Shown: in pieces, positions 1,382 through 24,054 of the stretch
How the letters are laid out: each line of letters opens with the position of its first letter
Position numbering within the stretch: the first letter of the stretch is position 1
Assembly (NCBI GenBank): GCA_947625435.1
Contig: CANQOI010000004.1
Coordinates: forward strand, 1 to 62,095
DNA: 62,095 bases
Direction of reading: 5' to 3'
DNA from: an uncultured Clostridia bacterium
Lineage (GTDB): Bacteria; Bacillota; Clostridia; UBA1212; UBA1255
The notes under the pieces: generated by a model
The model's database searches: none
The model's input: only the letters and a program-made list of their open reading frames with translations
What the model was told of the DNA's origin: nothing
Position numbers and translations under genes: made by a program

Positions 1382-1461
1382 ATTGACCTCTCAATTTTTA
1401 GAATGTTCGGTATAGGCGCGCCGGGCAGTATCTTTTGATTTGAATACGAGCCTATTCTTTC

Positions 1462-2279: not shown

Positions 2280-2430
2280 GGCACACCCTCCTGTCTTGAT
2301 ATCATAACATGTTTTTTAAAAATATCAAGAATAAATTCTCAAGAAAATTGAAAAAAGTTATTAATATCTCAAAATTATCGAGATATTATATTTTTGTCTC
2401 AAGAAATTTGAGACGTTGGGAGGTGTAATA

Positions 2431-2607
2431 ATGATAGATGTGGCAAGGAATGCAAGAACTATCCTTAAAGATCGCGGATTAAAACAAAGTTACATAGCAA
2501 AAAAAGCGGGTTATACAGTCGCGCAATTTAGCGGTTTGTTATGCGGCAGAAAAACCATTAAAGCTAATGACATAACCCGTTTATGCATTGCACTCGATGT
2601 AATATGA
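2431..2607 (+). CDS. Small XRE-family HTH protein (cro-like), possibly C-terminally truncated
   Basis: GGGAGGTG SD, then ATG at 2431. The product is MIDVARNARTILKDRGLKQSYIAKKAGYTVAQFSGLL.. It is divergent from the CI-like repressor and ends ..LCIALDVI* inside the ATGA junction with the lysin gene. Confidence 0.65.
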   Translation: MIDVARNARTILKDRGLKQSYIAKKAGYTVAQFSGLLCGRKTIKANDITRLCIALDVI

Positions 2608-3431: not shown

Positions 3432-3560
3432 TTAAATTTTTGTAAGCTATTGTTTTTTTGCTCTTATTCGCATATAATATCAGCACAGGCATGTAACATG
3501 TGCTGTATACTCGTGCCAACGAATTAGCGTTTAAGCGTCATGTAATGGCGCCGTCCACGA

Positions 3561-3594
3561 GGGGCCGCTTAAAATGCGGCCTTTAATTTTTTTT
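3561..3594 (+). terminator. Rho-independent terminator after the endolysin
   Basis: GGCCGC (3563-3568) pairs with GCGGCC (3576-3581), followed by TTTAATTTTTTTT. Confidence 0.6.
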
Positions 3595-3606
3595 AAGAGG
3601 GTACAC

Positions 3607-4293
3607 ATGAATTTATACATATATTCAGACGAATCAGGTGTTTTTGATAAAATCCATAATGACATATTTGTATTTGGAGGATTGATTTTCTTTAGTGACG
3701 AAGAAAGAAACGAATGCGCGCGAAAATATAAAGTGGCAGAAAATTATGTCAGAAGAAATGAATCAATAAGTGCAGAAACTGAAGTTAAAGCGGCAACTAT
3801 AAGTAATAAATCCAAAGATAGTTTATTTAGAGCCTTAAATAAATATTACAAGTTTGGTGTTAAAATTAAACAACAATTAGTAATTGATAATATTTTTAAA
3901 AGTAAAAAGGACAAGCAAAGATATCTCGATTATGCATACAAAATTGCTGTTAAAAAAGCATTGGTTGCAAAAATAAATTCAAAAGAAATAGATTGTAGCA
4001 GGGTCAAAAATATTAGTTTTTTTATTGATTCGCATTCTACAGCGACTAATGGGGTATACGAATTAAAAGAATCCTTGGAGCAAGAGTTCAAAAGAGGCAT
4101 GTATTCTAGTAATTACAAAACATATTATCCTCCTATTTTCCCTTACTTACAAAACGTGCATTTATCATTTTGTGACTCAAAAGAAAAAATGTTGATAAGA
4201 TGTGCGGACATCGTATCAAATAAAGTGTACTACAGTGCGGTAAAAAACAAAATAATAACTAATGATAACATCCATGTTATAAAGTTGCCATGA
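3607..4293 (+). CDS. DUF3800-family protein (moron-like cassette)
   Basis: The N-terminus MNLYIYSDESGVF..FVFGGLIF is the characteristic DUF3800 start. The region is very AT-rich. The start is placed at ATG 3607, after the terminator and an AAGAGGG SD, rather than at the track start 3574. Confidence 0.6.
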   Translation: MNLYIYSDESGVFDKIHNDIFVFGGLIFFSDEERNECARKYKVAENYVRRNESISAETEVKAATISNKSKDSLFRALNKYYKFGVKIKQQLVIDNIFKSKKDKQRYLDYAYKIAVKKALVAKINSKEIDCSRVKNISFFIDSHSTATNGVYELKESLEQEFKRGMYSSNYKTYYPPIFPYLQNVHLSFCDSKEKMLIRCADIVSNKVYYSAVKNKIITNDNIHVIKLP

Positions 4294-4305
4294 TAGATAA
4301 ATACT

Positions 4306-4341
4306 ATTGATAAAGACACATGGACGGCATTACTTAAGTAA
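4306..4341 (+). pseudogene. C-terminal remnant (IDKDTWTALLK*) of a second endolysin gene
   Basis: A 31-nt match with 5 mismatches to the 3' end of the lysin gene (3401-3431). It encodes the same DTWTALLK* ending. Confidence 0.6.
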
Positions 4342-4352
4342 TGACATTTATT

Positions 4353-4460
4353 GTGCAAATTACCCGCAAGTTAAAAATCGACGAAATTACGAAATTTTGC
4401 CGATTTTAACTAAAAAAATAGGTATAGACCATTCGCTGTGCAAGTTACCCGCAAATTAAA
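4353..4460 (+). repeat. Pair of 23-nt direct repeats (GTGCAAATTACCCGCAAGTTAAA and GTGCAAGTTACCCGCAAATTAAA)
   Basis: Copies lie at 4353-4375 and 4438-4460 and match at 21/23 positions. They sit at the element end next to the tRNA terminator and may be recombinase arm sites or an att-region remnant. Confidence 0.5.
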
Positions 4461-4499
4461 TAAAAATAAAAGAGACTATTTGACGTGAAATAGTCTCTT
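4457..4499 (-). terminator. Rho-independent terminator downstream of tRNA-Glu
   Basis: A perfect 11-bp stem (4470-4480 with 4489-4499). On the minus strand it is followed by TTTATTTTTATTT. Confidence 0.7.
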
Positions 4500-4584
4500 C
4501 CCGCAATCAGAATCTCACTACAACTGCAATAGCTTTTTCAAAAATATAAAGCGTATACTCTTGTGAGTTCGTATTTGCGCCGTG

Positions 4585-4659
4585 TGGTGACTCCTACGGG
4601 AATCGAACCCGTGTTTCCGCCGTGAGAGGGCGGTGTCTTAGCCGCTTGACCAAGGAGCC
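4585..4659 (-). tRNA. tRNA-Glu (anticodon CUC)
   Basis: The reverse complement is GGCTCCTTGGTCAAGCGGCTAAGACACCGCCCTCTCACGGCGGAAACACGGGTTCGATTCCCGTAGGAGTCACCA. The cloverleaf folds, the anticodon loop is CT-CTC-AC, a GGTTCGATTCC T-arm is present, and CCA is encoded. Confidence 0.9.
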
Positions 4660-4738
4660 GCAAGCACTTCCGTATGATACAACAAGTTATGAATGCTTGT
4701 CAATAAAAATTTATTTATGCCCGTACATTAATTTCACA

Positions 4739-4801: not shown

Positions 4802-5770
4802 ATGGACATAAAACAATTTCAGACCGAAATAGCGGACAGGTTGGGCGGCACACAGGCCGCATTATCACTGAACACGGCGTTTTCATACGCGGGCGCGCTT
4901 CTTTCGTCTGCCGGGGAGATACGTATAAGGACAGGCCTGCCGCTGTGCGTGATAGGGAGCAGGCGCAAAGAAAGGTACTTTATATCGGGAAGCGGCAGGA
5001 TAGTCACATCCGGCAGCGCGTACAGGCCGTCTAAGGAGGAAATAGCGAGGATATTTGCCTGTATATGCAGAAGCTCGCTGTACGCATACAGGGAAGACAT
5101 AAAAAACGGCTTCATAACGCTGAAGGGCGGCCACAGAGTCGGCATAGCGGGTAAAATGCTCTCCGACGGCTCCGTATACGAGGTTTCGAGCCTTAACATA
5201 AGGATAGCAAGGCAGGTGCGCGGATGCGCGGGCGAGATTGTAGAGCATATAATCAAAAACAGCAGTGAAATATACAGCACACTCATAATATCGCCTCCGG
5301 CGTGCGGCAAAACAACAGTTATAAGAGATATCGCGAGGATACTGGGAAGCGGGAACAGAGCGCCCCATTTTACCGGTGCGAACGTGGGCATAATAGACGA
5401 AAGGTCGGAGATCGCCGCATGCTATAACGGCGAAGCATCAAACGACGTGGGACTCATGACGGACGTATACGACGCGTGCCCTAAGGAAAAGGGGATACTC
5501 ATGATGATACGCAGCATGGCGCCCGACATAATAATAACAGATGAGATAGGCGGCCCGGGGGATGCGGCGGCGGTAAAATCCGCGGTGAACGCGGGAGTCA
5601 AGCTTATAGCGACGGCACACGGCAGCAGCGTTTCCGATCTGAAGGTGAGGAGCGAGATAGCCGATATGATACGCTCGGGTGTGTTTGAAAAATACATAAC
5701 GCTGAGCGCCGCAAACGGACCCTGCACGATAGAAGAAGTGGTGAGCGGCACACCGGAGGATATTTTATGA
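4802..5770 (+). CDS. spoIIIAA: Stage III sporulation protein AA (ATPase)
   Basis: Walker A ISPPACGKTT and Walker B IIITDEIG. It is the first gene of an eight-gene spoIIIA-ordered operon. Confidence 0.9.
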   Translation: MDIKQFQTEIADRLGGTQAALSLNTAFSYAGALLSSAGEIRIRTGLPLCVIGSRRKERYFISGSGRIVTSGSAYRPSKEEIARIFACICRSSLYAYREDIKNGFITLKGGHRVGIAGKMLSDGSVYEVSSLNIRIARQVRGCAGEIVEHIIKNSSEIYSTLIISPPACGKTTVIRDIARILGSGNRAPHFTGANVGIIDERSEIAACYNGEASNDVGLMTDVYDACPKEKGILMMIRSMAPDIIITDEIGGPGDAAAVKSAVNAGVKLIATAHGSSVSDLKVRSEIADMIRSGVFEKYITLSAANGPCTIEEVVSGTPEDIL

Positions 5771-6303
5771 TAGGACTTACGATCAAGATGATAGGAGCGC
5801 TGCTCATAATATCCGGCGGAGCCATGACGGGCATGAAAATAAAAAGATATTATATAAAAAGGCGTGAAATGCTTAAGAAGATGCAGGATGCTCTGAGATA
5901 TGCGGATGACGCGATAAGCATAGAAAACGCACTCCTTGACGAGGTGCTCATATCCTGCGGAGAGAAATTCTTCGGGGGCAGCAGGGAGGAGGATGTATTC
6001 GGCAGAGCCGCCGCATATCTGAAGGAAGAATTCGGAAGCTTCGAACGCGCGTGGGACAGAGCGTGCGCGGAGCTCGAAGAAAAATGCGTGTATCTTAAGA
6101 AAGCCGACATAGAATGCATTTCGGGTATAGGAAAAGCACTGGGGCATTCCGACACCGACAGACAGTCGGCATATGTGGCATCCGCAGTCAAAAAGCTCGC
6201 GGCACTGGAGGAGCAGGCGTCCGAAGCCGAGTCGCGGGAGGGCAGGAACGCCGTTAAAATAGCGCTCGCCGTGTCTGCCGCGGTCATAATAATACTTTTC
6301 TGA
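5767..6303 (+). CDS. spoIIIAB: Stage III sporulation protein AB
   Basis: 178 aa with an N-terminal TM segment. Its position and size fit the spoIIIA operon, and it overlaps AA by 4 nt. Confidence 0.8.
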   Translation: MIGLTIKMIGALLIISGGAMTGMKIKRYYIKRREMLKKMQDALRYADDAISIENALLDEVLISCGEKFFGGSREEDVFGRAAAYLKEEFGSFERAWDRACAELEEKCVYLKKADIECISGIGKALGHSDTDRQSAYVASAVKKLAALEEQASEAESREGRNAVKIALAVSAAVIIILF

Positions 6304-13316: not shown

Positions 13317-15953
13317 ATGGGTAAGAAGTACGTTTACGATTTCAAGGAAGGCAACGGCGGCATGAGAGAGCTGCTCGGCGGTAAAGGCGCCAACCTTGCC
13401 GAAATGACAAATCTCGGAATGCCGGTTCCGCAGGGATTTACTATCACAACTGAAGCATGTACGCAGTATTATGCCGACGGTCAGACGATCAATGATGAAA
13501 TACTTGCGGAAGTTATGGAGCACATTAAGGTGCTTGAGGGGATTTCGGGAAAGAAATTCGGAGATCTTGACAATCCGCTGCTCGTCTCGGTACGCTCCGG
13601 CGCGAGAGCCTCTATGCCCGGCATGATGGACACGATACTTAATCTCGGACTCAATGATGAGGTCGTTGAGAGCTTCGCCAAGAAGACCGGAAATCCGCGC
13701 TTCGCATACGATTCATACCGCCGCTTCATACAGATGTATTCTGACGTTGTCATGGAGGTCGGCAAGAAATATTTTGAACAGCTCATCGATAAGATGAAGG
13801 AAGAAAAGGGCGTTAAGCTGGACACGGAGCTGAATGCCGCGGATCTTAAGGAGCTGGCACGCCTCTTTAAGGCTGAATATAAGGATAAGATAGGCGAAGA
13901 TTTCCCGAGCGATCCTTTAGATCAGCTCAAGGGCGCCATAAAGGCCGTTTTCCGTTCATGGGACAACCCGAGAGCTATCTACTACAGAAGGATGAACGAT
14001 ATACCTTCCAGCTGGGGAACGGCGGTAAACGTACAGATGATGGTATTCGGAAATATGGGCAATACATCAGGAACGGGCGTTGCTTTCTCGAGGAACCCCG
14101 CAACGGGCGAGAAGAAGCTCTACGGCGAATATCTCATGAACGCTCAGGGCGAGGATGTTGTGGCCGGTGTCAGGACGCCTCAGACGATAGATCAGCTCAA
14201 GGCTGAGAATCCCGATGTGTACAAGCAGTTCTACGATATAGTTTACAAGCTCGAGAATCACTATAAGGACATGCAGGACATGGAGTTCACGATAGAAGAG
14301 GGCAAGCTCTACATGCTCCAGACGAGGAACGGCAAGAGAACGGCTGCCGCTGCTCTCAAGATAGCATGCGATCTGGTAGACGAGGGCATGATCACTCCCG
14401 AACAGGCTGTCCTCATGATAGACCCCAAGCAGCTCGACGCTCTCCTTCATCCTCAGTTCGAGGCATCTGCTCTTAAGAAGGCGGAGCCCATAGGAGAGGC
14501 TCTTCCCGCTTCACCGGGAGCTGCCTGCGGCAAGGTCGTATTTACCGCCGAGGACGCTACGGATTGGGCTGTGAACAAGAAGGAGAAGGTCGTTCTCGTT
14601 CGTCTTGAAACATCCCCCGAGGATATCGAGGGCATGCATTACGCTCAGGGAATACTCACCGTAAGAGGCGGTATGACGAGCCATGCGGCCGTTGTCGCAA
14701 GAGGCATGGGAACATGCTGCGTTTCCGGCTGCGGCGCCATAAAGATAGACGAGGAGAAGAAGGTATTCTCACTGGGCGGCAAGACATTCCATGAGGGCGA
14801 TTACATTTCACTCGACGGATCCACCGGTAAAATATACGGCGAAGCCATACCCACAGTGGACGCTTCCATTTCAGGCGACTTTGAACGTATAATGAACTGG
14901 GCGGACAGCTTCAGAAAGCTGAACGTAAGGACTAATGCGGACACACCGAAGGATGCAAAGCAGGCATTCGCTTTCGGCGCGGAGGGAATAGGACTCTGCC
15001 GCACGGAGCACATGTTCTTTGATCCCGACAGGATAGCCGCCATGCGTGAAATGATAGTTTCAAAGACTGTTGAGCAGAGAAAGGTAGCTCTCAATAAGCT
15101 CCTTCCCATGCAGAGAGGCGACTTCGAACAGCTTTACGAGGCTATGGAGGGAAGACCGGTAACTATACGTTTCCTGGATCCTCCGCTTCACGAATTCCTG
15201 CCTACGGCAGAGGAGGACATCGCGGCTCTTGCGGCGGAGATGAAGCTTGACGTGGCCGAGCTCAAGGGCGTCATAAGCGCTCTCCACGAGTTCAATCCCA
15301 TGATGGGACACAGAGGCTGCCGTCTTGCTGTTTCATATCCTGAGATCGCTGAAATGCAGACGACTGCCGTTATAGAGGCTGCCATAAATACTCAGAAGAA
15401 GCATCCCGATTGGACGGTAGTACCCGAGATAATGATACCTCTTGTAGGCGAGGTTAAGGAGCTTGCTTTCGTTAAGGGTGTTGTAACAGGCACGGCCGAC
15501 AAGATAATAGCGGAGAGCGGACTTGAGCTTCATTACAAGGTGGGAACCATGATAGAGATACCCAGAGCCGCTATCACAGCCGATGAGATAGCTCAGGAAG
15601 CGGAATTCTTCAGCTTCGGTACGAATGACCTCACTCAGATGACGTTCGGCTTCAGCCGCGACGATGCAGGCGCGTTCCTCGGTTCTTATTATGATAAGAA
15701 GATTTACGAGAACGATCCCTTCGCTAAGCTCGATCAGCACGGCGTAGGCAAGCTCGTTAAGATAGCAGCTGAGCTCGGAAGAAAGACCCGTCCCGACATT
15801 AAGCTCGGCATATGCGGTGAGCACGGCGGCGATCCTTCAACCGTTGAGTTCTGCCACAAGGTAGGCCTCAACTATGTTTCATGCTCGCCTTTCCGCGTTC
15901 CGATAGCTCGCCTTGCGGCGGCGCAGGCAGCGCTTAAGGATGGCAAGAACTGA
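13317..15953 (+). CDS. ppdK: Pyruvate, phosphate dikinase
   Basis: 878 aa with LLGGKGANLAEM, the phospho-His region GGMTSHAAVVARGMG and the C-terminal PEP-utilising GTNDLTQ motif. Confidence 0.95.
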   Translation: MGKKYVYDFKEGNGGMRELLGGKGANLAEMTNLGMPVPQGFTITTEACTQYYADGQTINDEILAEVMEHIKVLEGISGKKFGDLDNPLLVSVRSGARASMPGMMDTILNLGLNDEVVESFAKKTGNPRFAYDSYRRFIQMYSDVVMEVGKKYFEQLIDKMKEEKGVKLDTELNAADLKELARLFKAEYKDKIGEDFPSDPLDQLKGAIKAVFRSWDNPRAIYYRRMNDIPSSWGTAVNVQMMVFGNMGNTSGTGVAFSRNPATGEKKLYGEYLMNAQGEDVVAGVRTPQTIDQLKAENPDVYKQFYDIVYKLENHYKDMQDMEFTIEEGKLYMLQTRNGKRTAAAALKIACDLVDEGMITPEQAVLMIDPKQLDALLHPQFEASALKKAEPIGEALPASPGAACGKVVFTAEDATDWAVNKKEKVVLVRLETSPEDIEGMHYAQGILTVRGGMTSHAAVVARGMGTCCVSGCGAIKIDEEKKVFSLGGKTFHEGDYISLDGSTGKIYGEAIPTVDASISGDFERIMNWADSFRKLNVRTNADTPKDAKQAFAFGAEGIGLCRTEHMFFDPDRIAAMREMIVSKTVEQRKVALNKLLPMQRGDFEQLYEAMEGRPVTIRFLDPPLHEFLPTAEEDIAALAAEMKLDVAELKGVISALHEFNPMMGHRGCRLAVSYPEIAEMQTTAVIEAAINTQKKHPDWTVVPEIMIPLVGEVKELAFVKGVVTGTADKIIAESGLELHYKVGTMIEIPRAAITADEIAQEAEFFSFGTNDLTQMTFGFSRDDAGAFLGSYYDKKIYENDPFAKLDQHGVGKLVKIAAELGRKTRPDIKLGICGEHGGDPSTVEFCHKVGLNYVSCSPFRVPIARLAAAQAALKDGKN

Positions 15954-16003
15954 TATATCGGCACTTCTCAAGCTTCACTTTGACACTTGAGTATGCACGG
16001 AAA

Positions 16004-16046
16004 GATCCCCGATCGCAGTCATGCAGTCGGGGATCTTGTTTGTTTT
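16004..16046 (+). terminator. Rho-independent terminator of ppdK
   Basis: GATCCCCGA (16004-16012) pairs with TCGGGGATC (16027-16035), followed by TTGTTTGTTTT. Confidence 0.75.
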
Positions 16047-16138
16047 ACGCTTTCAGCATATCTTCATAGGCAACGAGTGTTACGTTCTCGTTTTCTCTTC
16101 CTATGAACATATTTTGTTTTTAGCTTATTGTCCCAATA

Positions 16139-16167
16139 TTGACAAATATGTCCCAAAGTGTTATATT
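16139..16167 (+). promoter_or_regulatory. Sigma-A-type promoter of the ATPase/protease operon
   Basis: TTGACA (16139-16144) - 17 nt - TATATT (16162-16167). The -35 is bracketed by two TGTCCCAA direct repeats (16129-16136 and 16149-16156). Confidence 0.55.
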
Positions 16168-16202
16168 AAAAAACAAAGAAAATAAAAGGGAGATTGCATA
16201 TC

Positions 16203-17252
16203 ATGAAGAAAAAAAATGTGATAAACTTAATAAAATATTATACAGAAAAGAATGATGCGGGCTTTCGAAATGAAGCATATGAAATTGCTAAAGGATTTGA
16301 TGCTTCTGGAGATTATCAACTTTCGGAGTATATCATGTCCTTATTGTCCAATGTGAATACGTTTGTACCGCAGATGTCGGAGAATGCTTCTCCATTTTTT
16401 GAAAAAATTGGAAGGAATGTAGATATGCTGTTACTTCCGGATGTAATTACCGGTGATTTGTTGGGTGCAGTAAATGCAATTGAACATCATATTGGAATTA
16501 ATAAGTTTTTGTTTCAGGGGGCACCGGGCACCGGAAAGACGGAGGCGGTTAAGCAACTTGCACGGATCTTGAATAGAGATATTTTTATGGTGGATTTTTC
16601 AGCAGTGATTGATAGTAAAATGGGACAGACACAAAAGAATTTATCCATGGTATTTAAGGAAATAAATAGTTTCGTTCAGCCGAATAAGGTAATTGTTATG
16701 TTTGATGAGATCGATGCTTTGGCTATAGATCGAACGAATCAGAATGATCTGCGAGAAATGGGGCGAGTAACCTCTGCTATGTTGAAAGAATTTGACAGGA
16801 TGAATGAAAATGTAGTTTTAGTTGCAACAACTAATCTTTATAAATACTTCGATAAAGCATTAATCAGAAGATTTGATTCAGTCATTGATTTTGATAGATA
16901 TACTCAAGAAGATCTTCTTTCGATTGCAGAGAAGATGTTAGATCAATATCTTGATAAATTAAAACTTGCAAATAGAGATATCCGCTTGTTTCGAAAAATA
17001 ATGAAACTAATGCCACAGATACCGTATCCGGGGGAACTGAAGAATTTGATTAAAACGTCCGTTGCATTTAGTAATCCAAATGACGGTATGGACTATTTTA
17101 GAAGGCTTTACTATGCAGTCTGCAATGAGAAACCGGGAAATTTAAAAAATCTTCAGAGCCAGAAATTTACGGTCAGAGAAATAGAAATACTGGTTGGAAG
17201 ATCAAAAAGTAGTATTGCAAGAGATTTGAAAGAAGGTGTAGTGAATGAATAA
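16203..17252 (+). CDS. ietA: AAA+ ATPase, IetA-like component of an ATPase + S8 protease pair
   Basis: Walker A GAPGTGKTE, Walker B VIVMFDEIDAL and a sensor region VLVATTN. The C-terminal tail FTVREIEILVGRSKSSIARDLKEG looks HTH-like. The gene is AT-rich and overlaps the protease gene by 8 nt. The start is taken at ATG 16203, after the AAGGGAGA SD. Confidence 0.65.
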   Translation: MKKKNVINLIKYYTEKNDAGFRNEAYEIAKGFDASGDYQLSEYIMSLLSNVNTFVPQMSENASPFFEKIGRNVDMLLLPDVITGDLLGAVNAIEHHIGINKFLFQGAPGTGKTEAVKQLARILNRDIFMVDFSAVIDSKMGQTQKNLSMVFKEINSFVQPNKVIVMFDEIDALAIDRTNQNDLREMGRVTSAMLKEFDRMNENVVLVATTNLYKYFDKALIRRFDSVIDFDRYTQEDLLSIAEKMLDQYLDKLKLANRDIRLFRKIMKLMPQIPYPGELKNLIKTSVAFSNPNDGMDYFRRLYYAVCNEKPGNLKNLQSQKFTVREIEILVGRSKSSIARDLKEGVVNE

Positions 17253-19512
17253 CATTTTACAGTTAAAAGGAAGATTTGAACAAAGACCTAACAGTTCCAA
17301 ACCGGGACCGCCGAAACTTCCGAAGGGAAAAAGTGTGTCTTCATCACATCTTATTGAATTATCAGAACAATTGAAAAGAATTTTGCAATATTGGAAAACA
17401 AATACAGATATTAGTGGAGCTCTGGTTAGCGTACACTATACACATATTGTTGCAAAGAGTAATAGATTGAAGATTTTGTTGTCTGAGAATGGTAAATCTC
17501 CTGTGGAATCTATCAGAGGAGCTAAGTTTATCTGGGAACCGGATGAAGATGGTCAAGAGATACAAAAACATATATTCACTCATTATGTTTCAATCAAAGC
17601 GATTGAAAAAGCAATCGAAGTTTTGGATGAAACAATATCTGTTATTGAAAAATATTTTAATGGTACTATTACTGGTGATGAAACAGAAAAGATAGCAAAT
17701 ACACCGGCGGATAGATTTAGTGTTTTTTCCAAATCTAATTTTTTGAACGCTGTGGCGGATGGATTTTACGTTGAAAGTTTTGATATTGATCGAGCTGCAG
17801 AAGAGATAACAGAGGAATCTATTATAACAATTTATCAGACCGGGATTGAAACGAAGAAATTGTTGTCAAAGTTTGGAATTCATATCGTTGATGACCGTAT
17901 TATTGATAGCACTACATTAAGGCTTAATCCGGATGAAGCGAAACTGTTATATAATCGTGCTTCGTATCTGATTGCGATGAGTGTCACAGATTTTTCGCGG
18001 CTTACGAGAGACGAGGTATTTGAGGATAAGGCAGAGATCAGTGATGAAGAAAGTTTGATACCCCATCCGACTAACGAACCTGTAATAGGAGTTATTGATA
18101 CACAATTTAATGAAAAAGTGTATTTTCATGAGTGGGTAGAATATAGAAATATGCTTGATGAGAATATTCCATTGACTGCAAAAGATTATGAGCATGGAAC
18201 AGAGGTAAGTTACATCATTGTAGATGGTCCGAAAGGCAATCCGGAACTTGATGATGGGTGCGGTAGATTCCGAGTACGTCATTTTGGTGTTGCAACACAT
18301 AGAGGTTTCAGTTCATTTACCGTGTTAAAAATGATACGAAACATTGTTGCCTCAAACAGGGATATTAAGGTATGGAATTTATCATTAGGTTCGATACTCG
18401 AAATCAAGCCCAATTTTATTTCTCCGGAGGCAGCGGAACTTGATCGTATACAAAGTGATTATGATGTTATTTTTGTTGTTGCCGGGACAAATATTCCGGA
18501 TGGTGAAACAAAAAAGAATATGAAAATTGGATCGCCGGCAGATTCACTTAATTCTTTAGTAGTCAATGCTGTAGACTTTAAAGGAAAATCAGCATCTTAT
18601 ACTAGAGTTGGCCCTGTATTATCTTTTTTCCATAAGCCTGATATTAGTTATTATGGCGGAGACGGTTCTGATTATAGGGATAAAATAGTTGTATGTCGTG
18701 ATGATTTGGGAGCCGCATATGTAAGTGGAACTTCATTTGCAGCGCCGTGGATTTCAAGAAAACTGGCATATTTAATTTGTGTTATGGGATTGAGCAGAGA
18801 AGTCGCAAAAGCATTATTGATTGATGCTGCTGCGGGATGGAACAGAAAAGATGACGTTTCCCATAGTATCGGTTATGGCGTTGTTCCAAAACATATTCGT
18901 GACATTGTGAGAACATCGAATGATGAGATACGTTTTATTTTGACCGGTGCGTCAGAGGAATATGAGACATATACATATAACCTGCCAGTACCAATTGTAG
19001 ATAATGCGCATCCATTTTATGCAAGAGCAACATTAGTATATTTTCCACAATGTGATCGTAATCAAGGGGTCGATTATACAAGCACTGAAATGGACATACA
19101 CTTTGGCAGAGTTGTCATTGAAAACAGAAAAGCGACAATAAAACCAATAGATAACAATCAGCAATCTGAAAATAAGTTTATTACTCTTTATGAAGAAGAT
19201 GCAAGAAAAATGTATCGAAAATGGGATAATATCAAACATATTAGTGAGGAAATTAAAAAAAGAAGAATTCCAAGAAGAGCATATGACGCCGGCCTTTGGG
19301 GGCTTAGGATAAATACGAAAGAACGTTTGCAGAGACGAAAAGAACCACTTCAGTTTGGAGTAGTTATAACATTGAAGGAAATGAATGGCGTAAATCGTAT
19401 TGATGATTTTATCAAGATGTGTATGGCGCGTGGATGGCTGGTTAATCAATTGGACATTGAGAATCAGTTGGATGTATATGCAAAGGCAGAAGAAGATATT
19501 GTATTCGAGTAA
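17245..19512 (+). CDS. ietS: S8 (subtilisin-family) serine peptidase with ~280-aa unknown N-terminal region and ~200-aa C-terminal extension, IetS-like
   Basis: The triad contexts are intact: VIGVIDTQ (Asp285, nt 18097), EHGTEVS (His317, nt 18193) and GTSFAAPWIS (Ser497, nt 18733), with oxyanion WNLSLG. There is no signal peptide, so the protein is cytoplasmic. Confidence 0.65.
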   Translation: MNNILQLKGRFEQRPNSSKPGPPKLPKGKSVSSSHLIELSEQLKRILQYWKTNTDISGALVSVHYTHIVAKSNRLKILLSENGKSPVESIRGAKFIWEPDEDGQEIQKHIFTHYVSIKAIEKAIEVLDETISVIEKYFNGTITGDETEKIANTPADRFSVFSKSNFLNAVADGFYVESFDIDRAAEEITEESIITIYQTGIETKKLLSKFGIHIVDDRIIDSTTLRLNPDEAKLLYNRASYLIAMSVTDFSRLTRDEVFEDKAEISDEESLIPHPTNEPVIGVIDTQFNEKVYFHEWVEYRNMLDENIPLTAKDYEHGTEVSYIIVDGPKGNPELDDGCGRFRVRHFGVATHRGFSSFTVLKMIRNIVASNRDIKVWNLSLGSILEIKPNFISPEAAELDRIQSDYDVIFVVAGTNIPDGETKKNMKIGSPADSLNSLVVNAVDFKGKSASYTRVGPVLSFFHKPDISYYGGDGSDYRDKIVVCRDDLGAAYVSGTSFAAPWISRKLAYLICVMGLSREVAKALLIDAAAGWNRKDDVSHSIGYGVVPKHIRDIVRTSNDEIRFILTGASEEYETYTYNLPVPIVDNAHPFYARATLVYFPQCDRNQGVDYTSTEMDIHFGRVVIENRKATIKPIDNNQQSENKFITLYEEDARKMYRKWDNIKHISEEIKKRRIPRRAYDAGLWGLRINTKERLQRRKEPLQFGVVITLKEMNGVNRIDDFIKMCMARGWLVNQLDIENQLDVYAKAEEDIVFE

Positions 19513-19582
19513 TAATGTCGAAAAGAGGTATATGGGAATAAAAGGAAGTTATATGACGAATGATTTTAGGGCTGATAAAAAG

Positions 19583-21061
19583 TCACTTGTTTTTGCCAAC
19601 CTCGTCGTCGGTGGTGATGATCTGCGTATGCGTCTTTGAACTTGCAAATGCTTCAAGGTTTTTTATCCGTCGCTCGGCCAGCTCTGCGATGACACGGATG
19701 CGGTTTTCTTCCATATAATCTTTCGCGTTTTCGTCTGAGAGGATTTCCTTAATCATTTCACCGATGCCGGAAAGCGCGGTGAAGTCGATCCAGTCAAAAG
19801 ACGATACGAGCTTTAACTGCTCTTCGTGGCGTTTATTGAACGGTTTGCAGACGACCTCAGATCCGTCCCGCATCATCGGTACGCTTTTGTCATAGCCGAG
19901 AGACGACCCGCTGTCATAAATCGGCGCCATGCCGAGCCATTCAAGCGTTTCGGCGTTACGGATCGCGCCGAAGTTGTTCAGGTGCCTGTCTTCGTTTGCA
20001 ATAATATAGTCGAGCACGATCATACGATCCAAAAACGCTCTGACATCGGGAATTCCGAGCGCGTCCGTACAATCAATAAAGTGCTGATACATTGACTTGC
20101 TGTTTGGCTGTTTCCCGGTCTGAATGATCCGCCGCGCCGGGACAAGTTCGGTATCTTCGTTGATAAAATCCTCACATATGCTGTACGGTGCACCTTTATT
20201 CCACGTCACTGTATAAGGCACATGAGGGATATTCAGCCGCCGCATGATCTCAGATGCGATCACTTCGTTCAGCGGCTGCTGACGGTAAGGGTTAGAACCG
20301 CCTTTGACAAGGCATCGTTTGCCGTCAATGATTTTCCAACGCTTTTTCAGATTGCCGTCGGAGGTGCTGTCGGGCGAGGAGAAGTTCAGCGGATCAGGTT
20401 TTTTATCCGCGCCGAAAAGCACGTCGCCAATATCGTCGGAAAAATCATTCCGGAAGAAATTGATCTTTTCCCAAGTAAGTTCGGAGTTTTCCGGGAGGAT
20501 CCAATACTGATCTGAAAGGGAAAGACCAAAGCATCGGATCAAAAGCATTTTTGTATCGGTGATCTGAAGCGTTTCCATTGCTTCACGGACACCGGAGCGG
20601 CTTGCGGGGATTGAGCGATCCGTCCACCACGCGTTTAGCGCTGCGCGATCGACAATGCCTCTTTTTATGCCTACACCGACAGGCAGATGTTCGGGCGCAA
20701 AAATATCACCGATTTTCTGAATAAAACCGGTTCCGTTATCGAGGTTGAGTTCGACCGCGGGTGTGCATTTATGCATTAGGGTACACTTTAAAAAGCCGGT
20801 CTGCGGTTCAGACGAAGCTTTGCCTCCTGACTTGATTTCAGCCAGTTCTTTTTGCATTTTCTTTCGAAGCTCGATTTGTTCGGTGAGCCCGGCAATCTCT
20901 TCATCGCGGAGATAGCTGCTTTTCTTTACTCCGCCCTCAGACCACTGATGATAGAAATAAACGTTGCCGTTTACAGTCTTTTTTGAGATATAGCCTTTGG
21001 GGAGTTTACCGATATTTTCGGTTAATTCCGCTATTTTTTGTATTGTAGTATGATCCGACAT
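19583..21061 (-). CDS. HipA-like Ser/Thr kinase with an N-terminal ~90-aa extension (monocistronic)
   Basis: The C-terminal half carries IANEDRHLNNFG (the HipA catalytic D-x-H-x-x-N loop) and PIYDSGSSLG. The N-terminus reads KGYISKKTVNGNVYFYHQWSEGGVKKSSY. No hipB-like ORF lies upstream. Confidence 0.7.
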   Translation of the reverse strand: MSDHTTIQKIAELTENIGKLPKGYISKKTVNGNVYFYHQWSEGGVKKSSYLRDEEIAGLTEQIELRKKMQKELAEIKSGGKASSEPQTGFLKCTLMHKCTPAVELNLDNGTGFIQKIGDIFAPEHLPVGVGIKRGIVDRAALNAWWTDRSIPASRSGVREAMETLQITDTKMLLIRCFGLSLSDQYWILPENSELTWEKINFFRNDFSDDIGDVLFGADKKPDPLNFSSPDSTSDGNLKKRWKIIDGKRCLVKGGSNPYRQQPLNEVIASEIMRRLNIPHVPYTVTWNKGAPYSICEDFINEDTELVPARRIIQTGKQPNSKSMYQHFIDCTDALGIPDVRAFLDRMIVLDYIIANEDRHLNNFGAIRNAETLEWLGMAPIYDSGSSLGYDKSVPMMRDGSEVVCKPFNKRHEEQLKLVSSFDWIDFTALSGIGEMIKEILSDENAKDYMEENRIRVIAELAERRIKNLEAFASSKTHTQIITTDDEVGKNK

Positions 21062-21087
21062 GTATTAACCCCTTTCTTATCACCGAT

Positions 21088-21116
21088 ATTATACCCTTTT
21101 CTATACGTATTATCAA
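21088..21116 (-). promoter_or_regulatory. Sigma-A-type promoter of the HipA-like kinase gene
   Basis: The minus strand reads TTGATA - 17 nt - TATAAT, followed by an AAAGGGG SD and the ATG at 21061. Confidence 0.6.
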
Positions 21117-21192
21117 CAGAAATATTTTTGCGGCGCTTCACACCGGATGACGCTGTCACTTAAAGAGCTTTGAGATGCGATCACAAAAGGTC

Positions 21193-21221
21193 TTGATTAT
21201 CTGCCTGCCCCACGCTATACT
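21193..21221 (+). promoter_or_regulatory. Sigma-A-type promoter of abiEi
   Basis: TTGATT - 17 nt - TATACT, ~50 nt upstream of ATG 21271. Confidence 0.5.
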
Positions 21222-21270
21222 ACTATCGCCAATCAGTTTTCACGATCTGTAAGAGGAAAGTAACAGTGCG

Positions 21271-21876
21271 ATGACCAAAACCGAAATTGCAGGGAAAGTG
21301 TTAAATGACACCGGCGGTATAGCAAAAACCTCAGAGCTTCTTGCTGCCGGTCTCTATAAATCCGACATCGGAAAACTCGTAACCGACGGGCTGCTTGAGC
21401 GCATTCGTCACGGGTTTTATCAGCTTGCCGGAAACCTTGATATTACTGAAGCAGAGTATTTGTCCCGCCTCATCCCCGAAGGGATCGTCTGTGTGGAATC
21501 TGCTCTTTTTCATTACGGATATACCGATTTCACGCCCCGTGAGTGGTCCATCGCCGTTCCCCGCGCTGCCTCACAAACAAAACTGAAAACTGCGGGCGTC
21601 CCATTTAAAGCGTATTATATCCGGTCTGACGTTTATGAGCTTGGCAAAACAGAGACGGATTTTGACGGTACGATACTACCGATCTATGACAAAGAACGCA
21701 CGATTTGCGACTGTTTCAAATATCGCACAAAGCTTGACAGTGAACTGTTCGCCAAGGCGGTAAATGCCTATGCGAACGACAAGGAAAAAAATCTTGCGAA
21801 TCTCGGCAGGTATGCGAAAAAGCTTCGCGTTTATAAAAGGGTTGCCGATATGATGGAGGTGCTGCTGACCGGCTGA
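21271..21876 (+). CDS. abiEi: AbiEi-family antitoxin (type IV TA / abortive infection AbiE)
   Basis: 201 aa. It has an N-terminal wHTH (IAKTSELLAAGLYKSDIGKLVTDGLLERIRHGFY) and a C-terminal VESALFHYGYTD..YDKERTICDCFKY, typical of AbiEi. Confidence 0.75.
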   Translation: MTKTEIAGKVLNDTGGIAKTSELLAAGLYKSDIGKLVTDGLLERIRHGFYQLAGNLDITEAEYLSRLIPEGIVCVESALFHYGYTDFTPREWSIAVPRAASQTKLKTAGVPFKAYYIRSDVYELGKTETDFDGTILPIYDKERTICDCFKYRTKLDSELFAKAVNAYANDKEKNLANLGRYAKKLRVYKRVADMMEVLLTG

Positions 21877-21879
21877 TAT

Positions 21880-21975
21880 AGGCGCTTCGGTTCTTGCGAA
21901 ATGCAAAACGATTTTTACGGCAAAACGCTTACAGAGGCGATGGAAAAAACCTTTGCAAACGCGATCGCAGCATAA
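21880..21975 (+). pseudogene. Gutted AbiEii (nucleotidyltransferase toxin) remnant
   Basis: Only ~100 nt lie where a ~0.9 kb abiEii is expected. One frame reads GASVLAKCKT (like the AbiEii N-terminal ASVxARLxN). Another reads ..TLTEAMEKTFANA..* (like the AbiEii C-terminal TFxxR region). Confidence 0.4.
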
Positions 21976-22007
21976 CAGACCAAAATTAAACTGAAAGGGA
22001 TAAGAAT

Positions 22008-22486
22008 ATGAGTAAAGGAATAATCTGCATCATGACTACAGCGGTTCCCGGACTTATTAAGATCGGAAAGACCGGAACTGCAAATTACGAGCAGAGAATG
22101 TATGATCCGGAGCATGACGGCTACCGGAATGTTACTGCGTTGAAGTGCTCTTTTGCCATCGTGACACAGCTTTTATCTTCATTTGACGGCGTTGTGATAT
22201 TCCCGAAAACCGAAACGAAAGCCGAAGTGTTTGACGCGGCTGTGGATAACGCTAAAGGCAAATTGCTTCCGGACGGTACATATACATTTAAACGTAAAAA
22301 GAAATCTGATAATAAGGTTGTAACAGCTGCTGCTGTTATCGACTATGGAAGATGGACTTTGCTAAAGGGCAGCGTACCGGGTGTTGCTGAAGATGCCGGC
22401 GTATCGCAAAAAGCAAAAACACTCAGAATGAGTATGCCGACGGGATTACCCCACACAAAAATATTTAAAAACGGGAGAGTGACTTC

Positions 22487-22490
<4 letters not shown>
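22008..22490 (+). pseudogene. Decayed GIY-YIG (T5orf172-like) / DUF4357 gene
   Basis: The N-terminus GIICIMTTAVPGLIKIGKTG resembles the T5orf172/GIY-YIG start, but the domain is cut short. The middle, GRWTLLKGSV, is DUF4357-like. The 3' end runs into the start of the kinase gene (ATGA overlap). Confidence 0.4.

Positions 22491-24054
<1,564 letters not shown>

What the first reader, a model, noticed from the sequence alone, without database searches (positions are those of the whole stretch)
16203..19512. AAA+ ATPase + cytoplasmic S8 subtilase operon (IetAS-like); mechanism unknown
Two genes overlap by 8 nt, which suggests translational coupling.

- The first is a 349-aa AAA+ ATPase with intact Walker A and B motifs.
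- The second is a 755-aa subtilase with no signal peptide and an intact Asp285/His317/Ser497 triad.
- The triad is embedded between a ~280-aa N-terminal region and a ~200-aa C-terminal region in which I recognise no motif.

An ATPase + S8 protease gene pair is the architecture of the ietAS anti-phage/plasmid-exclusion system. As far as I know, its trigger, protease substrate and effector logic are undescribed. This divergent Clostridial version is the best candidate in the window for new biology, for example ATPase-gated proteolysis as an abortive-infection switch.
Basis: partly seen in the sequence, partly recalled or inferred. Interest (0 to 1): 0.75.

Follow-up and report, generated by a model that had tools for sequence, protein, structure and literature searches.

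The report
IetAS protease–ATPase toxin–antitoxin defence cassette
This is a very common, already catalogued two-gene cassette in which a cytoplasmic subtilisin-like protease (toxin) is held in check by an AAA+ ATPase (antitoxin); close relatives are proven toxin–antitoxin pairs in Mycoplasma, and the only new points are a conserved operator-like repeat in its promoter and a protease N-terminal domain with no known structural relative.

Summary
ietA (16203-17252, 349 aa) and ietS (17245-19512, 755 aa) overlap by 8 nt. Walker A/B and the Asp285/His317/Ser497 triad are intact, and there is no signal peptide.

The interpretation (IetAS-like) is supported, but the pair is neither rare nor especially divergent:
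- PADLOC IetA/IetS models match; the IetS match is full length.
- The pair aligns end to end with the experimentally validated Mycoplasma mycoides antitoxin/toxin A132/T133 (52% and 40% identity).
- The same ATGAATAA overlap is present there.
- Relatives occur in at least 554 species genomes. The ATPase lies directly upstream in 77 of 78 loci where that can be judged.
- The 3.4-kb cassette sits at a different site in every genome.

New here:
- Two TGTCCCA boxes 20-21 nt apart straddle the -35 element. They are kept in 62/73 genomic and 12/13 viral-contig loci while the surrounding DNA diverges.
- IetA has an invariant C-terminal helix-turn-helix-like motif, which suggests autorepression.
- The IetS N-domain (1-258) models confidently but has no significant PDB or BFVD match.

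Substrates and trigger remain unknown. Verdict: a new member of a known kind, of moderate interest.

The parts
16112..19545 (+). Self-contained mobile ietAS cassette (promoter/operator, ietA, ietS)
   Evidence: DNA homology with Lachnospiraceae bacterium 48-42 (L001) is 91.7% and is confined to exactly this span, with unrelated flanks. None of about 80 other loci shares the window's insertion site. GC is 35-36% against 52% in the flanks.
16129..16167 (+). Promoter with two operator-like direct repeats: box 1 TGTCCCA 16129-16135, -35 TTGACA 16139-16144, box 2 TGTCCCA 16149-16155, extended -10 TGnTATATT ending at 16167
   Evidence: The promoter scan scores 11/12 with a TG extension. The box pair at 20-21 nt spacing is present in 62/73 genomic loci and 12/13 viral-contig loci. 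The consensus over 52 distinct sequences is TGTCCCAAtATTGACAnnnnTGTCCCaannTGnTAtAAT. Background TGTCC frequency is 0.84 per kb per strand.
16188..16192 (+). Ribosome-binding site GGGAG of ietA
   Evidence: Read directly from the sequence; it lies 10 nt upstream of ATG 16203.
16203..17252 (+). ietA: classical-clade AAA+ ATPase, 349 aa (antitoxin by orthology)
   Evidence: Pfam AAA 8e-26 and PADLOC IetA 2e-38. It is 52% identical over its full length to M. mycoides A132. The nearest solved relatives are AFG2, Cdc48 and Rix7 at about 1e-21. Walker A is at 16518-16541 and Walker B at 16689-16709. Sensor-1 N211 and Arg fingers R222/R223 are invariant (16833-16871). The non-aromatic pore-loop-like DSK(M/L)GQTQKN lies at 16611-16640.
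17160..17237 (+). IetA C-terminal helix-turn-helix-like motif (residues ~320-345, FTVREIEILVGRSKSSIARDLKE)
   Evidence: R325, E326, I327, E328, S334, K335 and S336 are invariant. A profile of this region has the AlpA HTH as its best PDB hit, E 0.013. Orthologous C-termini hit almost only HTH families in Pfam: MarR_2 in 8/16, HTH_23 in 7/16, HTH_7 in 5/16, plus HTH_38 and LacI. The evidence is weak but consistent. The window's own copy is below threshold.
17245..19512 (+). ietS: cytoplasmic S8 subtilase, 755 aa (toxin by orthology)
   Evidence: Pfam S8 2e-29 and PADLOC IetS 1e-62 over the full length. It is 40% identical over 1-755 to M. mycoides T133. The AF2 model has pLDDT 85 and pTM 0.87.
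17245..17304 (+). IetS N-terminal tail (residues 1-20, MNNILQLKGRFEQ...), nearly invariant
   Evidence: N2 and G9 are invariant; M1, L5, L7, K8 and F11 are conserved in at least 90% of sequences. In the full-length model it forms beta strands (pLDDT 82-88). It is disordered when the N-domain is modelled alone.
17305..18018 (+). IetS N-terminal alpha/beta domain (residues ~21-258), clade-specific, no known relative
   Evidence: The isolated-domain model has pLDDT 88. The best Foldseek E-value is 0.085 in PDB and 0.013 in BFVD, with TM below 0.25. Pfam finds no family. The domain does not align to canonical IteS. K71, S72, R74 and G92 are conserved.
18067..18909 (+). IetS S8 catalytic domain (residues ~275-555): D285 (18097-18099), H317 (18193-18195), N416 (18490-18492), S497 (18733-18735)
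   Evidence: The triad and N416 are invariant in 77 and in 131 sequences. Foldseek top hits are Tk-SP 3afg at 1.7e-19, KP-43, EpiP and kexin/furin.
18910..19509 (+). IetS C-terminal beta-sandwich plus helical domain (residues ~556-755). It contains a conserved loop, 639-657 (19159-19215), that is predicted to be disordered
   Evidence: hhalign shows this domain is shared with canonical IteS: query 263-732 aligns, E 2.5e-36. G608, Y611, E650, K659, W660 and K664 are invariant or nearly so. The loop has pLDDT 35-47.

Best explanation
The pair is a functional IetAS-family toxin-antitoxin / abortive-infection cassette. It belongs to the clade that includes Mycoplasma mycoides A132/T133.

**Shown here or by orthology**
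- IetS is a catalytically intact, cytoplasmic S8 protease whose orthologues kill the cell.
- IetA is a classical AAA+ ATPase, made from the same transcript and translationally coupled through the ATGAATAA overlap. Its orthologues neutralise the protease.
- The two genes travel as a 3.4-kb unit with their own sigma-70-type promoter and need no conserved third gene.

**Inferred**
1. Autorepression (about 0.6 that the boxes are an operator; about 0.5 that IetA is the binder). The promoter is repressed through two TGTCCCA boxes, one abutting the -35 element and one inside the spacer. The most likely binder is the C-terminal helix-turn-helix-like motif of IetA, as in type II antitoxins.
2. Release of the toxin. 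Phage infection, loss of the element or host shut-off removes or occupies IetA. IetS is then freed and cleaves cellular proteins, so growth stops before phage progeny are released.
3. ATP-dependent remodelling (about 0.25). Neutralisation is active remodelling rather than simple binding. IetA would engage the near-invariant N-terminal tail of IetS, much as TRIP13 restrains HORMA in type III CBASS.
4. The clade-specific IetS N-domain is the candidate sensor or regulatory module.
For: **Family membership**
- PADLOC IetA matches at 2e-38 and IetS at 1e-62 over the full length.
- hhalign to NCBI-annotated IteS covers S8 plus the C-domain, E 2.5e-36.

**Orthology to a validated TA pair**
- IetS is 40% identical to T133 over 1-755 against 1-757, 560 bits.
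- IetA is 52% identical to A132 end to end, with the same 8-nt overlap.
- Toxicity of T133 and rescue by A132 are shown in PMC6755753 and PMC8562856.

**Intact chemistry**
- Walker A/B, sensor-1 N211, Arg fingers R222/R223, D285/H317/N416/S497 are all invariant.

**Co-inheritance**
- IetA lies directly upstream in 77/78 loci, and most loci keep the 8-nt overlap.
- Identities of the two proteins correlate at r = 0.95 over 74 loci.

**Self-contained cassette**
- The homologous DNA has sharp boundaries.
- Neighbours are heterogeneous: no family occurs in more than 5 of 98 flanking ORFs.

**Defence context**
- In the window the cassette sits next to a HipA-like PDC-M03A protein, AbiEi and a PDC-S57-like protein.
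- Flanking ORFs elsewhere include AriA, DolB, methyltransferases and Cas3.

**Operator**
- The TGTCC pair at 20/21 nt occurs in 62/73 genomic and 12/13 viral-contig loci, down to 50% IetA identity and in M. mycoides, inside otherwise diverged DNA.

**HTH**

**ATPase activity needed for neutralisation**
- An ietA mutant of ietHAS could not be cloned (PMC13069673).

**Abortive infection and a phage trigger for a family member**
- bioRxiv 10.1101/2022.08.27.505566.
Against: - Nothing was tested experimentally in this organism or this clade for phage defence. The Mycoplasma work showed only TA behaviour.
- NCBIfam equivalog cut-offs for IteA/IteS are not met.
- The HTH assignment is weak: E 0.013 against PDB, and the window's own C-terminus gives no Pfam hit.
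- The binder of the TGTCCCA boxes is not identified.
- The pore loop of IetA lacks the aromatic residue typical of processive unfoldases.
- The experimentally triggered B. cereus system belongs to a different subfamily. Its upstream DNA has no TGTCCCA boxes, so the YosG trigger cannot be transferred to this cassette.
Confidence: 0.7

Rival explanations
1. The cassette is purely an addiction (post-segregational killing) module. It stabilises the mobile element or plasmid that carries it and has no role in phage defence.
For: - The founding member stabilises pTiC58 (cited in PMC13069673 and PMC8562856).
- Full-length homologues sit on plasmids: 18 records, including a C. perfringens plasmid where the pair lies near ParA/ParB and a recombinase.
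- The clade's only experiments, in Mycoplasma, show TA behaviour alone.
- The cassette is clearly mobile.
Against: - Other IetAS members protect against phage, and the protease activity is required (PMC13069673; bioRxiv 10.1101/2022.08.27.505566).
- In the window and in many loci the neighbours are defence genes.
- Most copies are chromosomal, in at least 554 species genomes.
- The two roles are not mutually exclusive.
Confidence: 0.2
2. The pair is a two-component ATP-dependent protease. IetA is an unfoldase that feeds substrates to IetS, so it is an activator rather than an inhibitor, and the pair carries out regulated or housekeeping proteolysis.
For: - IetA belongs to the classical AAA clade of unfoldases such as Cdc48, AFG2 and PAN.
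- The tight 1:1 gene coupling resembles protease-ATPase pairs.
Against: - Genetics in orthologues run the opposite way. Deleting the ATPase is lethal only if the protease is present, and deleting the protease has no phenotype (PMC6755753).
- The cassette is an accessory, horizontally moving island with foreign GC.
- Pore loop 1 is non-aromatic.
- S8 proteases are not compartmentalised chambers.
Confidence: 0.06
3. IetS is a secreted or maturation subtilase (a lantibiotic leader peptidase, mycosin or kexin type), and the ATPase is an accessory chaperone.
For: - The best structural matches of the S8 core are Tk-SP, KP-43, EpiP, kexin and furin.
- There is a weak NCBIfam mycosin hit at 1.6e-5.
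Against: - There is no signal peptide or TM segment.
- No I9 propeptide family was detected.
- No conserved substrate, transporter or secretion genes lie nearby.
- Orthologues are intracellular toxins.
Confidence: 0.02
4. The TGTCCCA boxes are not an IetA operator. They are bound by the IetS N-domain or by another factor, or they are promoter UP/spacer elements conserved for RNA polymerase.
For: - Binding was not tested, and the HTH evidence is weak.
- The IetS N-domain is of unknown function, and its weak fold matches include nucleic-acid-binding ferredoxin-like folds such as Cas6, RRM and LAGLIDADG.
Against: - The boxes are kept across hosts as different as Mycoplasma, Lachnospiraceae, Negativicutes and plasmids. 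The binder should therefore be encoded in the cassette.
- Two identical 7-mers on the same DNA face, spaced two helical turns apart, are typical of a protein operator and not of polymerase contacts.
- IetA carries the only HTH-like motif found.
Confidence: 0.15

Closest known systems
Mycoplasma mycoides subsp. capri / JCVI-syn A132-T133 (JCVISYN2_0132/0133) AAA-ATPase / subtilase toxin-antitoxin pair
   Same: - The proteins are collinear over their full length: 349 against 353 aa at 52% identity, and 755 against 757 aa at 40% identity.
- The gene order and the ATGAATAA overlap are the same.
- TTGTCC direct repeats lie in the promoter.
- The IetA C-terminal REIEIL..SKSS motif is shared.
   Different: - The host differs (Clostridia-type genome against Mollicutes), as do GC content and genetic code.
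- The Mycoplasma pair has been tested only as a TA pair and kill switch, not for phage defence.
IetAS / IteAS as defined by pTiC58 (Yamamoto 2009), Gao et al. 2020 and NCBIfam NF042959/NF042956 (for example the Dongshaea marina plasmid iteS)
   Same: - An AAA ATPase of about 350-375 aa lies upstream of an S8 protease of about 740-760 aa, with overlapping genes.
- The AAA core is homologous, including the DSxLGxTxKN motif.
- The S8 domain and the C-terminal domain are homologous, including the YE..R....KW..K motif.
   Different: - The IetS N-domain (~260 aa) and the IetA N- and C-terminal extensions do not align.
- There are no TGTCCCA boxes upstream.
- Identity is only about 25%.
- NCBIfam equivalog cut-offs are not met.
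Bacillus cereus m1293 ietAS (abortive infection; toxicity triggered by SPbeta YosG)
   Same: It is in the same family and in a Bacillota host. Its abortive-infection logic gives the most plausible phenotype for this cassette.
   Different: - The IetA N-terminus differs, and the ~220 nt of upstream sequence available has no TGTCCCA boxes.
- Only the first 500 nt of the published sequence were readable, so the full comparison was not possible.
- The trigger cannot be assumed to be shared.
ietHAS (E. coli, PMC13069673)
   Same: It has an IetA/IetS core in which the protease is required for defence and an ietA mutant cannot be cloned.
   Different: It has an essential third SNF2-type helicase gene. 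The window cassette and its relatives have no conserved third gene.
TRIP13/Pch2-HORMA module of type III CBASS (a functional analogy, not membership)
   Same: - An AAA+ remodeller acts as the negative regulator of a defence effector.
- IetA hits the PADLOC TRIP13 models at 2e-18.
- IetS has a near-invariant N-terminal tail that could serve as the handle.
   Different: There is no HORMA protein, no cyclase and no nucleotide signal. Engagement of the tail is only inferred.
Multidomain subtilases with a C-terminal beta-sandwich (Tk-SP 3afg, KP-43 1wmd, kexin/furin P-domain)
   Same: They give the best structural matches. The aligned lengths of 490-565 columns exceed the S8 core, which suggests a comparable S8 plus beta-sandwich arrangement.
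   Different: - Those enzymes are secreted and carry I9-type propeptides.
- Sequence identity is 12-17%.
- The IetS N-domain has no counterpart.

Membership tests
IetAS (Gao_Iet / PADLOC ietAS) system | An AAA ATPase gene lies immediately upstream of, and co-directional with, an S8 peptidase gene | tested here: met
   Genes at 16203-17252 and 17245-19512 overlap by 8 nt. The arrangement is kept in 77/78 related loci.
IetAS (Gao_Iet / PADLOC ietAS) system | Both proteins match the family HMMs | tested here: met
   PADLOC IetA PDLC02196 matches at 2.2e-38. IetS PDLC02197 matches at 1.1e-62 over model positions 41-748 of 749.
IetAS (Gao_Iet / PADLOC ietAS) system | S8 core plus the family-specific C-terminal domain is homologous to annotated IteS | tested here: met
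   hhalign of A1 against D. marina IteS aligns residues 263-732 with 249-756, E 2.5e-36.
IetAS (Gao_Iet / PADLOC ietAS) system | Catalytic residues of the ATPase and the protease are intact | tested here: met
   Walker A/B, N211, R222/R223, D285, H317, N416 and S497 are all present and conserved.
IetAS (Gao_Iet / PADLOC ietAS) system | The protease is toxic and the ATPase neutralises it | not testable with these tools
   This is shown for orthologues at 40% and 52% identity (PMC6755753, PMC8562856) but not for this pair.
IetAS (Gao_Iet / PADLOC ietAS) system | The system confers phage resistance or plasmid exclusion | not testable with these tools
   This is shown for E. coli and B. cereus members of other subfamilies (PMC13069673; bioRxiv 10.1101/2022.08.27.505566).
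NCBIfam IteA/IteS equivalogs (NF042959, NF042956) | The score reaches the curated equivalog cut-off | tested here: not met
   IteA scores 109 bits against a cut-off of 510. IteS scores 154.5 bits against 900. The pair is a relative but not an equivalog of that subfamily.
A132/T133 clade (Mollicutes/Bacillota) | Both proteins are collinear over their full length with the validated pair | tested here: met
   IetS 1-755 aligns with T133 1-757 at 40% identity and 560 bits. IetA 1-349 aligns with A132 1-353 at 52% identity.
A132/T133 clade (Mollicutes/Bacillota) | Shared clade-specific features: the IetS N-domain and N-tail, the IetA C-terminal REIE..SKS motif, and the TGTCC box pair in the promoter | tested here: met
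Type II toxin-antitoxin systems with an autoregulating antitoxin | The antitoxin carries a DNA-binding domain | tested here: inconclusive
   An HTH-like motif is invariant. However, the best PDB E-value is only 0.013, and the Pfam HTH hits are weak and occur in orthologues only.
Type II toxin-antitoxin systems with an autoregulating antitoxin | An operator overlaps the operon promoter | tested here: met
   Two conserved TGTCCCA boxes flank and lie within the -35/-10 region. Binding itself was not tested.
Secreted / propeptide-dependent subtilases (I9 propeptide plus signal peptide) | An N-terminal signal peptide and an I9 inhibitor propeptide are present | tested here: not met
   There is no hydrophobic N-terminus. 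Pfam finds no I9 hit. The N-domain has no significant structural match.

The most novel reading that the evidence does not exclude
IetA would be an energy-dependent, promoter-tethered AAA+ antitoxin. As a hexamer its C-terminal HTH motifs sit on the tandem TGTCCCA boxes. Its ATPase ring continually engages the invariant N-terminal tail of IetS and keeps the protease in an inactive conformation. The structurally unprecedented IetS N-domain would be the sensor that a phage protein or a metabolic signal uses to break this hold. That would be a toxin-antitoxin type in which neutralisation consumes ATP, so that energy collapse or ATPase inhibition is itself a trigger. It would also give the first mechanistic model for the IetAS family.
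Probability: 0.2. Interest if true: 0.75.

Novelty: new member of a known kind. Interest (0 to 1): 0.4.

Why it matters
IetAS has been known since 2009 as a plasmid addiction module and since 2020 as an anti-phage system. A 2026 paper still states that its anti-phage mechanism is unknown.

This window adds no new kind of system, but the comparison shows three things:
1. The gut-Clostridia cassette is the same entity as the Mycoplasma/JCVI-syn kill-switch toxin pair. Genetic tools and phenotypes already exist for it.
2. The clade carries a sharply conserved tandem operator in its promoter and an HTH-like tail on the ATPase. This gives a cheap, direct experimental handle (EMSA, reporter) on how the system is regulated.
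3. The parts that differ between IetAS subfamilies are the protease N-domain and the ATPase termini. These are the likely places where sensing specificity resides.

The cassette is also very abundant in gut Bacillota. This is relevant to phage-host dynamics in microbiomes and to phage therapy.

Tried and rejected
- **Apparent IetA-IetS fusions in L070-L072.** These were an artefact of my ORF extension. The genes are in the same frame but separated by a stop codon.
- **Single-sequence search of IetS against PDB.** There were no hits. A profile search hit only the S8 core, residues 263-535.
- **Pfam on the IetS N- and C-regions and on the IetA N- and C-termini.** Nothing significant was found.
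- **Fold search of the IetS N-domain in PDB and BFVD.** Nothing was significant, so the idea that it is an I9-type propeptide could not be supported.
- **Looking for a conserved third gene.** None was found.
- **Looking for terminal repeats or a target-site duplication at the cassette ends.** None was convincing.
- **Rfam on 15800-22100.** There were no matches.
- **Exact-sequence look-up of the window IetS to identify the source genome.** It is not on record.
- **Searching for the same insertion site (PPDK upstream) in about 80 related loci.** None was found.
- **Retrieving the B. cereus ietAS sequence from the supplement.** The stored text is truncated at 500 nt, so only its upstream region and the first ~95 IetA residues could be compared.
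- **Yamamoto 2009 (PMC2704731).** The paper is not held.

Full report
**Observation**

ietA runs from 16203 to 17252 (349 aa) and ietS from 17245 to 19512 (755 aa), both on the + strand.
- An alternative TTG start at 16194 lies inside the spacer between a GGGAG ribosome-binding site (16188-16192) and ATG 16203. All orthologues begin MKK, so 16203 is the start.
- The genes overlap by the 8 nt ATGAATAA.
- Walker A (GAPGTGKT, 106-113), Walker B (VIVMFDE, 163-169) and the S8 triad D285/H317/S497 are present in canonical contexts.
- The triad and the oxyanion-hole N416 are invariant in alignments of 77 and 131 relatives.
- Pfam sees only AAA (8e-26) and Peptidase_S8 (2e-29, residues 277-545). It sees nothing in the flanking ~270 and ~200 residues of IetS.
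- Neither protein has a hydrophobic N-terminus or a TM segment.
- The region has 35-36% GC against about 52% in the adjacent glyQS, PPDK and PfkB-kinase genes, so it is an acquired island.

**What it is**

PADLOC's IetA and IetS models match both proteins. The IetS match (1e-62) covers positions 41-748 of a 749-position model. NCBIfam's IteA/IteS equivalogs also give the best hits but fall far below their cut-offs. The pair is therefore in the IetAS family but not in the subfamily NCBI names.

The family is large:
- More than 7,600 protein clusters at 90% identity match at E <= 1e-5.
- In the library clustered at 50% identity, 1,598 representatives match, and 291 of these score below 1e-30.
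- The 150 best hits listed are mostly aligned over the full length.
- At least 554 species-representative genomes carry a relative, mostly Lachnospiraceae, Oscillospiraceae, Negativicutes, Erysipelotrichales and Mollicutes.

One of the 50% clusters is the S8 peptidase of Mycoplasma mycoides subsp. capri / JCVI-syn.
- The window IetS aligns with it over 1-755 against 1-757 at 40% identity and 560 bits.
- The gene upstream of it (A132, 353 aa) is 52% identical to the window IetA from end to end.
- It overlaps the protease gene by the same ATGAATAA.
- That pair is an experimentally proven toxin-antitoxin pair. Deletion of the ATPase is lethal unless the protease is also removed (PMC6755753). The protease is toxic and the ATPase rescues in E. 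coli and M. capricolum, and this also holds for homologues from M. bovis, M. gallisepticum and M. feriruminatoris (PMC8562856).

**Co-conservation and mobility**

- Of 82 related loci, 78 have DNA upstream of the protease gene, and 77 of these have the IetA homologue immediately upstream. Most keep the 8-nt overlap and the rest have -4 to +6 nt junctions. The exception, L058, is an N-terminally truncated copy.
- Identities of IetA and IetS to the window proteins correlate at r = 0.95. IetA is on average 7.6 points more conserved.
- Nucleotide homology between the window and a Lachnospiraceae genome (L001) is confined to window 16112-19545 at 91.7% identity, with unrelated flanks. No other locus shares the window's insertion site.
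- The largest flanking ORFs of the loci sampled (98 ORFs) share no family in more than 5 cases. Many are defence genes (mad3, DolB, AriA, type II/IIG/III methyltransferases, Cas3, several PDC candidates) or recombinases.
- Full-length homologues also occur on plasmids: 18 records, including a C. perfringens plasmid where the pair lies near ParA/ParB.
- They are rare on viral contigs: 16 loci among 2.9 million contigs.
- The unit is therefore a self-contained two-gene cassette that moves between defence islands, plasmids and occasionally prophages.

**Regulatory region (new)**

A near-consensus promoter lies 36 nt upstream of ietA: TTGACA, 17 nt, TG-n-TATATT, at 16139-16167.
- Aligning upstream regions shows two identical boxes, TGTCCCA (16129-16135 and 16149-16155). 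One abuts the -35 element and one lies inside the spacer.
- An exact TGTCC pair spaced 20 or 21 nt apart, about 75 and 55 nt before the start codon, is present in 62 of 73 genomic loci. The remainder mostly keep one exact box, in some cases beside a one-mismatch copy.
- The same pair is present in 12 of 13 viral-contig loci, down to 50% IetA identity.
- It is also present on the C. perfringens plasmid and, as TTGTCCT/TTGTCCA, in M. mycoides.
- The consensus over 52 distinct sequences is TGTCCCAAtATTGACAnnnnTGTCCCaannTGnTAtAAT, while neighbouring bases vary freely.
- TGTCC occurs at 0.84 per kb per strand in the same loci, so such a pair is expected in fewer than 1 in 1,000 upstream regions by chance.
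- The boxes are absent upstream of canonical IteAS (D. marina), a Rhizobium pair and the B. cereus m1293 system.
- The boxes persist across very different hosts, so the binder should be encoded in the cassette.

IetA has an invariant C-terminal motif, FT-x-REIE-x-L-x3-SKS-x-V-x-R-x-LK.
- A profile of this region finds the HTH of AlpA as its best PDB hit, E 0.013.
- Orthologous C-termini hit almost exclusively HTH families in Pfam, weakly: MarR_2 in 8/16, HTH_23 in 7/16, HTH_7 in 5/16, plus HTH_38 and LacI.
- I infer autorepression by IetA. I put the probability at about 0.6 that the boxes are an operator and about 0.5 that IetA is the binder.
- The papers I could read do not mention this.

**Protein anatomy**

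IetA is a classical-clade AAA+ protein.
- Its nearest solved relatives are AFG2, Cdc48, VAT and Rix7.
- Sensor-1 N211 and Arg fingers R222/R223 are invariant, which implies an oligomeric, hydrolysing ring.
- Its pore-loop-1 position is K-(M/L)-G without an aromatic residue. I judged this by eye against the known K-[YFW]-x-G motif. It resembles the D1 ring of Cdc48/p97, so processive unfolding is possible but not implied.

IetS was modelled with AF2 from a 131-sequence alignment (pLDDT 85, pTM 0.87). The model shows:
- an N-terminal tail (1-20);
- an alpha/beta N-domain (~21-258);
- a disordered linker (259-268);
- the S8 domain (~275-555);
- a beta-sandwich with terminal helices (~556-755) that contains a conserved loop predicted to be disordered (639-657).

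Foldseek matches the S8 core, and probably the beta-sandwich, to Tk-SP, KP-43, EpiP and kexin/furin.

Modelled alone, the N-domain is confident (pLDDT 88). It has no significant match in PDB (best E 0.085) or BFVD (best E 0.013), with TM below 0.25.

The near-invariant tail MNxLLQLKGxFEQ forms beta strands in the full-length model but is disordered in the isolated domain. It therefore packs on the catalytic or C-terminal part. I could not inspect coordinates.

Comparison with an NCBI-annotated IteS shows homology only for the S8 and C-terminal domains (263-732, E 2.5e-36). For the ATPase, only the AAA core aligns (77-270). The IetS N-domain and the IetA termini are therefore the subfamily-specific parts.

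**Mechanism**

Shown by orthology: the protease is the toxin and the ATPase the antitoxin.

From the literature on other members:
- Protease activity is required for defence, and an ietA mutant cannot be cloned (PMC13069673).
- Defence is abortive and can be triggered by a single phage protein (bioRxiv 10.1101/2022.08.27.505566).

My best model has three parts:
1. IetA represses its own promoter through the two boxes and restrains IetS.
2. Infection, element loss or shut-off removes this restraint.
3. IetS then cleaves cellular targets and growth stops.

One further step has only about 0.25 probability. It proposes that the restraint is ATP-driven remodelling through the IetS N-tail, analogous to TRIP13-HORMA in type III CBASS. 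IetA does hit the PADLOC TRIP13 models at 2e-18.

Rivals:
- A pure addiction module (0.2), which is not exclusive of the best model.
- The ATPase as an activator of a two-component protease (0.06). Orthologue genetics contradict this.
- A secreted or maturation subtilase (0.02). The absence of a signal peptide and of partner genes contradicts this.

**Novelty and verdict**

This is a new member of a known kind. However, the cassette is common, catalogued in PADLOC, and a full-length homologue of a validated TA pair. The modestly new results are the conserved tandem operator with an HTH-like ATPase tail, and the structurally orphan N-domain. Interest is 0.4.

Noticed in passing
window 19583-21061 (-) and 21271-21876 (+): A HipA-like kinase (492 aa; Pfam HipA_C 5.6e-10, PADLOC PDC-M03A 2e-19) is transcribed divergently from an AbiEi antitoxin-like gene (PADLOC AbiEi 3e-61). 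The AbiEi gene has no AbiEii partner downstream. A 40%-identical HipA-like gene also lies downstream of ietAS in the Phascolarctobacterium locus L071 (10623-11765). This may be an uncharacterised HipA-like/AbiEi pairing.
   Followed up: partly
window 22008-22490 (+): A 160-aa ORF matches PADLOC candidate PDC-S57 (3.7e-42, in two matched stretches, the best covering residues 1-51) and has no Pfam hit. Its sequence looks like a T5orf172/GIY-YIG-type N-terminus by eye. It overlaps the following PfkB carbohydrate-kinase gene (22487-23518) by 4 nt. Together with ietAS, the HipA-like gene and AbiEi, it forms a small defence islet between PPDK and the kinase.
   Followed up: partly
window 1-4660: A second low-GC stretch (34-40%) lies next to tRNA-Glu(CTC) at 4585-4659 (-). 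It encodes a DUF3644 plus EC042_2821 restriction-endonuclease-like protein (401-1381, -), a LexA/CI-type HTH_3 plus Peptidase_S24 repressor (1500-2279, -), a PG_binding_1 protein (2583-3431) and a DUF3800 protein (3574-4293). It is probably another integrated element or defence islet.
   Followed up: partly
window 19159-19215 (IetS residues 639-657): This loop is conserved in sequence across the family, including canonical IteS (motif YE..AR....KW.N.K; E650, K659, W660 and K664 invariant). AF2 nevertheless predicts it with pLDDT 35-47. A conserved but disordered segment suggests folding on a partner, possibly IetA, or a regulatory or cleavage site.
   Followed up: no
L086 1255-2379 and 2379-4601; L085 1326-2417: By eye, the C-termini of the Rhizobium and D. 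marina IetA proteins also look HTH-like (LSQRSVQKMTGVARDTVRS; FTIDLLASIFGYSSGKISSL). The Rhizobium IetS N-terminus (MAKQNFLLGKGERL) resembles the window's MNNILQLKGRFEQ. An HTH tail on IetA and an N-terminal handle on IetS may be family-wide, with subfamily-specific operators.
   Followed up: no
L058 about 5700-6120; L102: These are degraded copies. In L058, IetS starts at residue 36 and no IetA lies upstream. In L102, only IetS residues 255-639 are present. A toxin remnant without its antitoxin is consistent with inactivation after antitoxin loss.
   Followed up: partly
L018, L019, L021, L057, L061, L074, L078, L080: Near-identical or 55-72%-identical cassettes sit on contigs (several of them short) binned to Methanobrevibacter, 'proteobacterium', Phocaeicola, Enterobacterales, Succinivibrionaceae, Bacteroidales and Desulfovibrionaceae MAGs. 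This reflects either wide horizontal transfer or mis-binning of a mobile cassette.
   Followed up: no
window, whole: TGTCCCA occurs 11 times in the window against 4.7 expected, and none of 100 shuffles reached 11. The nine sites outside the ietAS promoter are all single sites on the minus strand. This is unexplained and may be a codon-usage effect.
   Followed up: no
P0095, P0118 (81% identical to window IetS): JGI names these S8 proteins 'predicted DNA-binding WGR domain protein'. Pfam finds no WGR domain in the window protein. This is probably an annotation artefact, though it is curious given the unidentified binder of the operator boxes.
   Followed up: no
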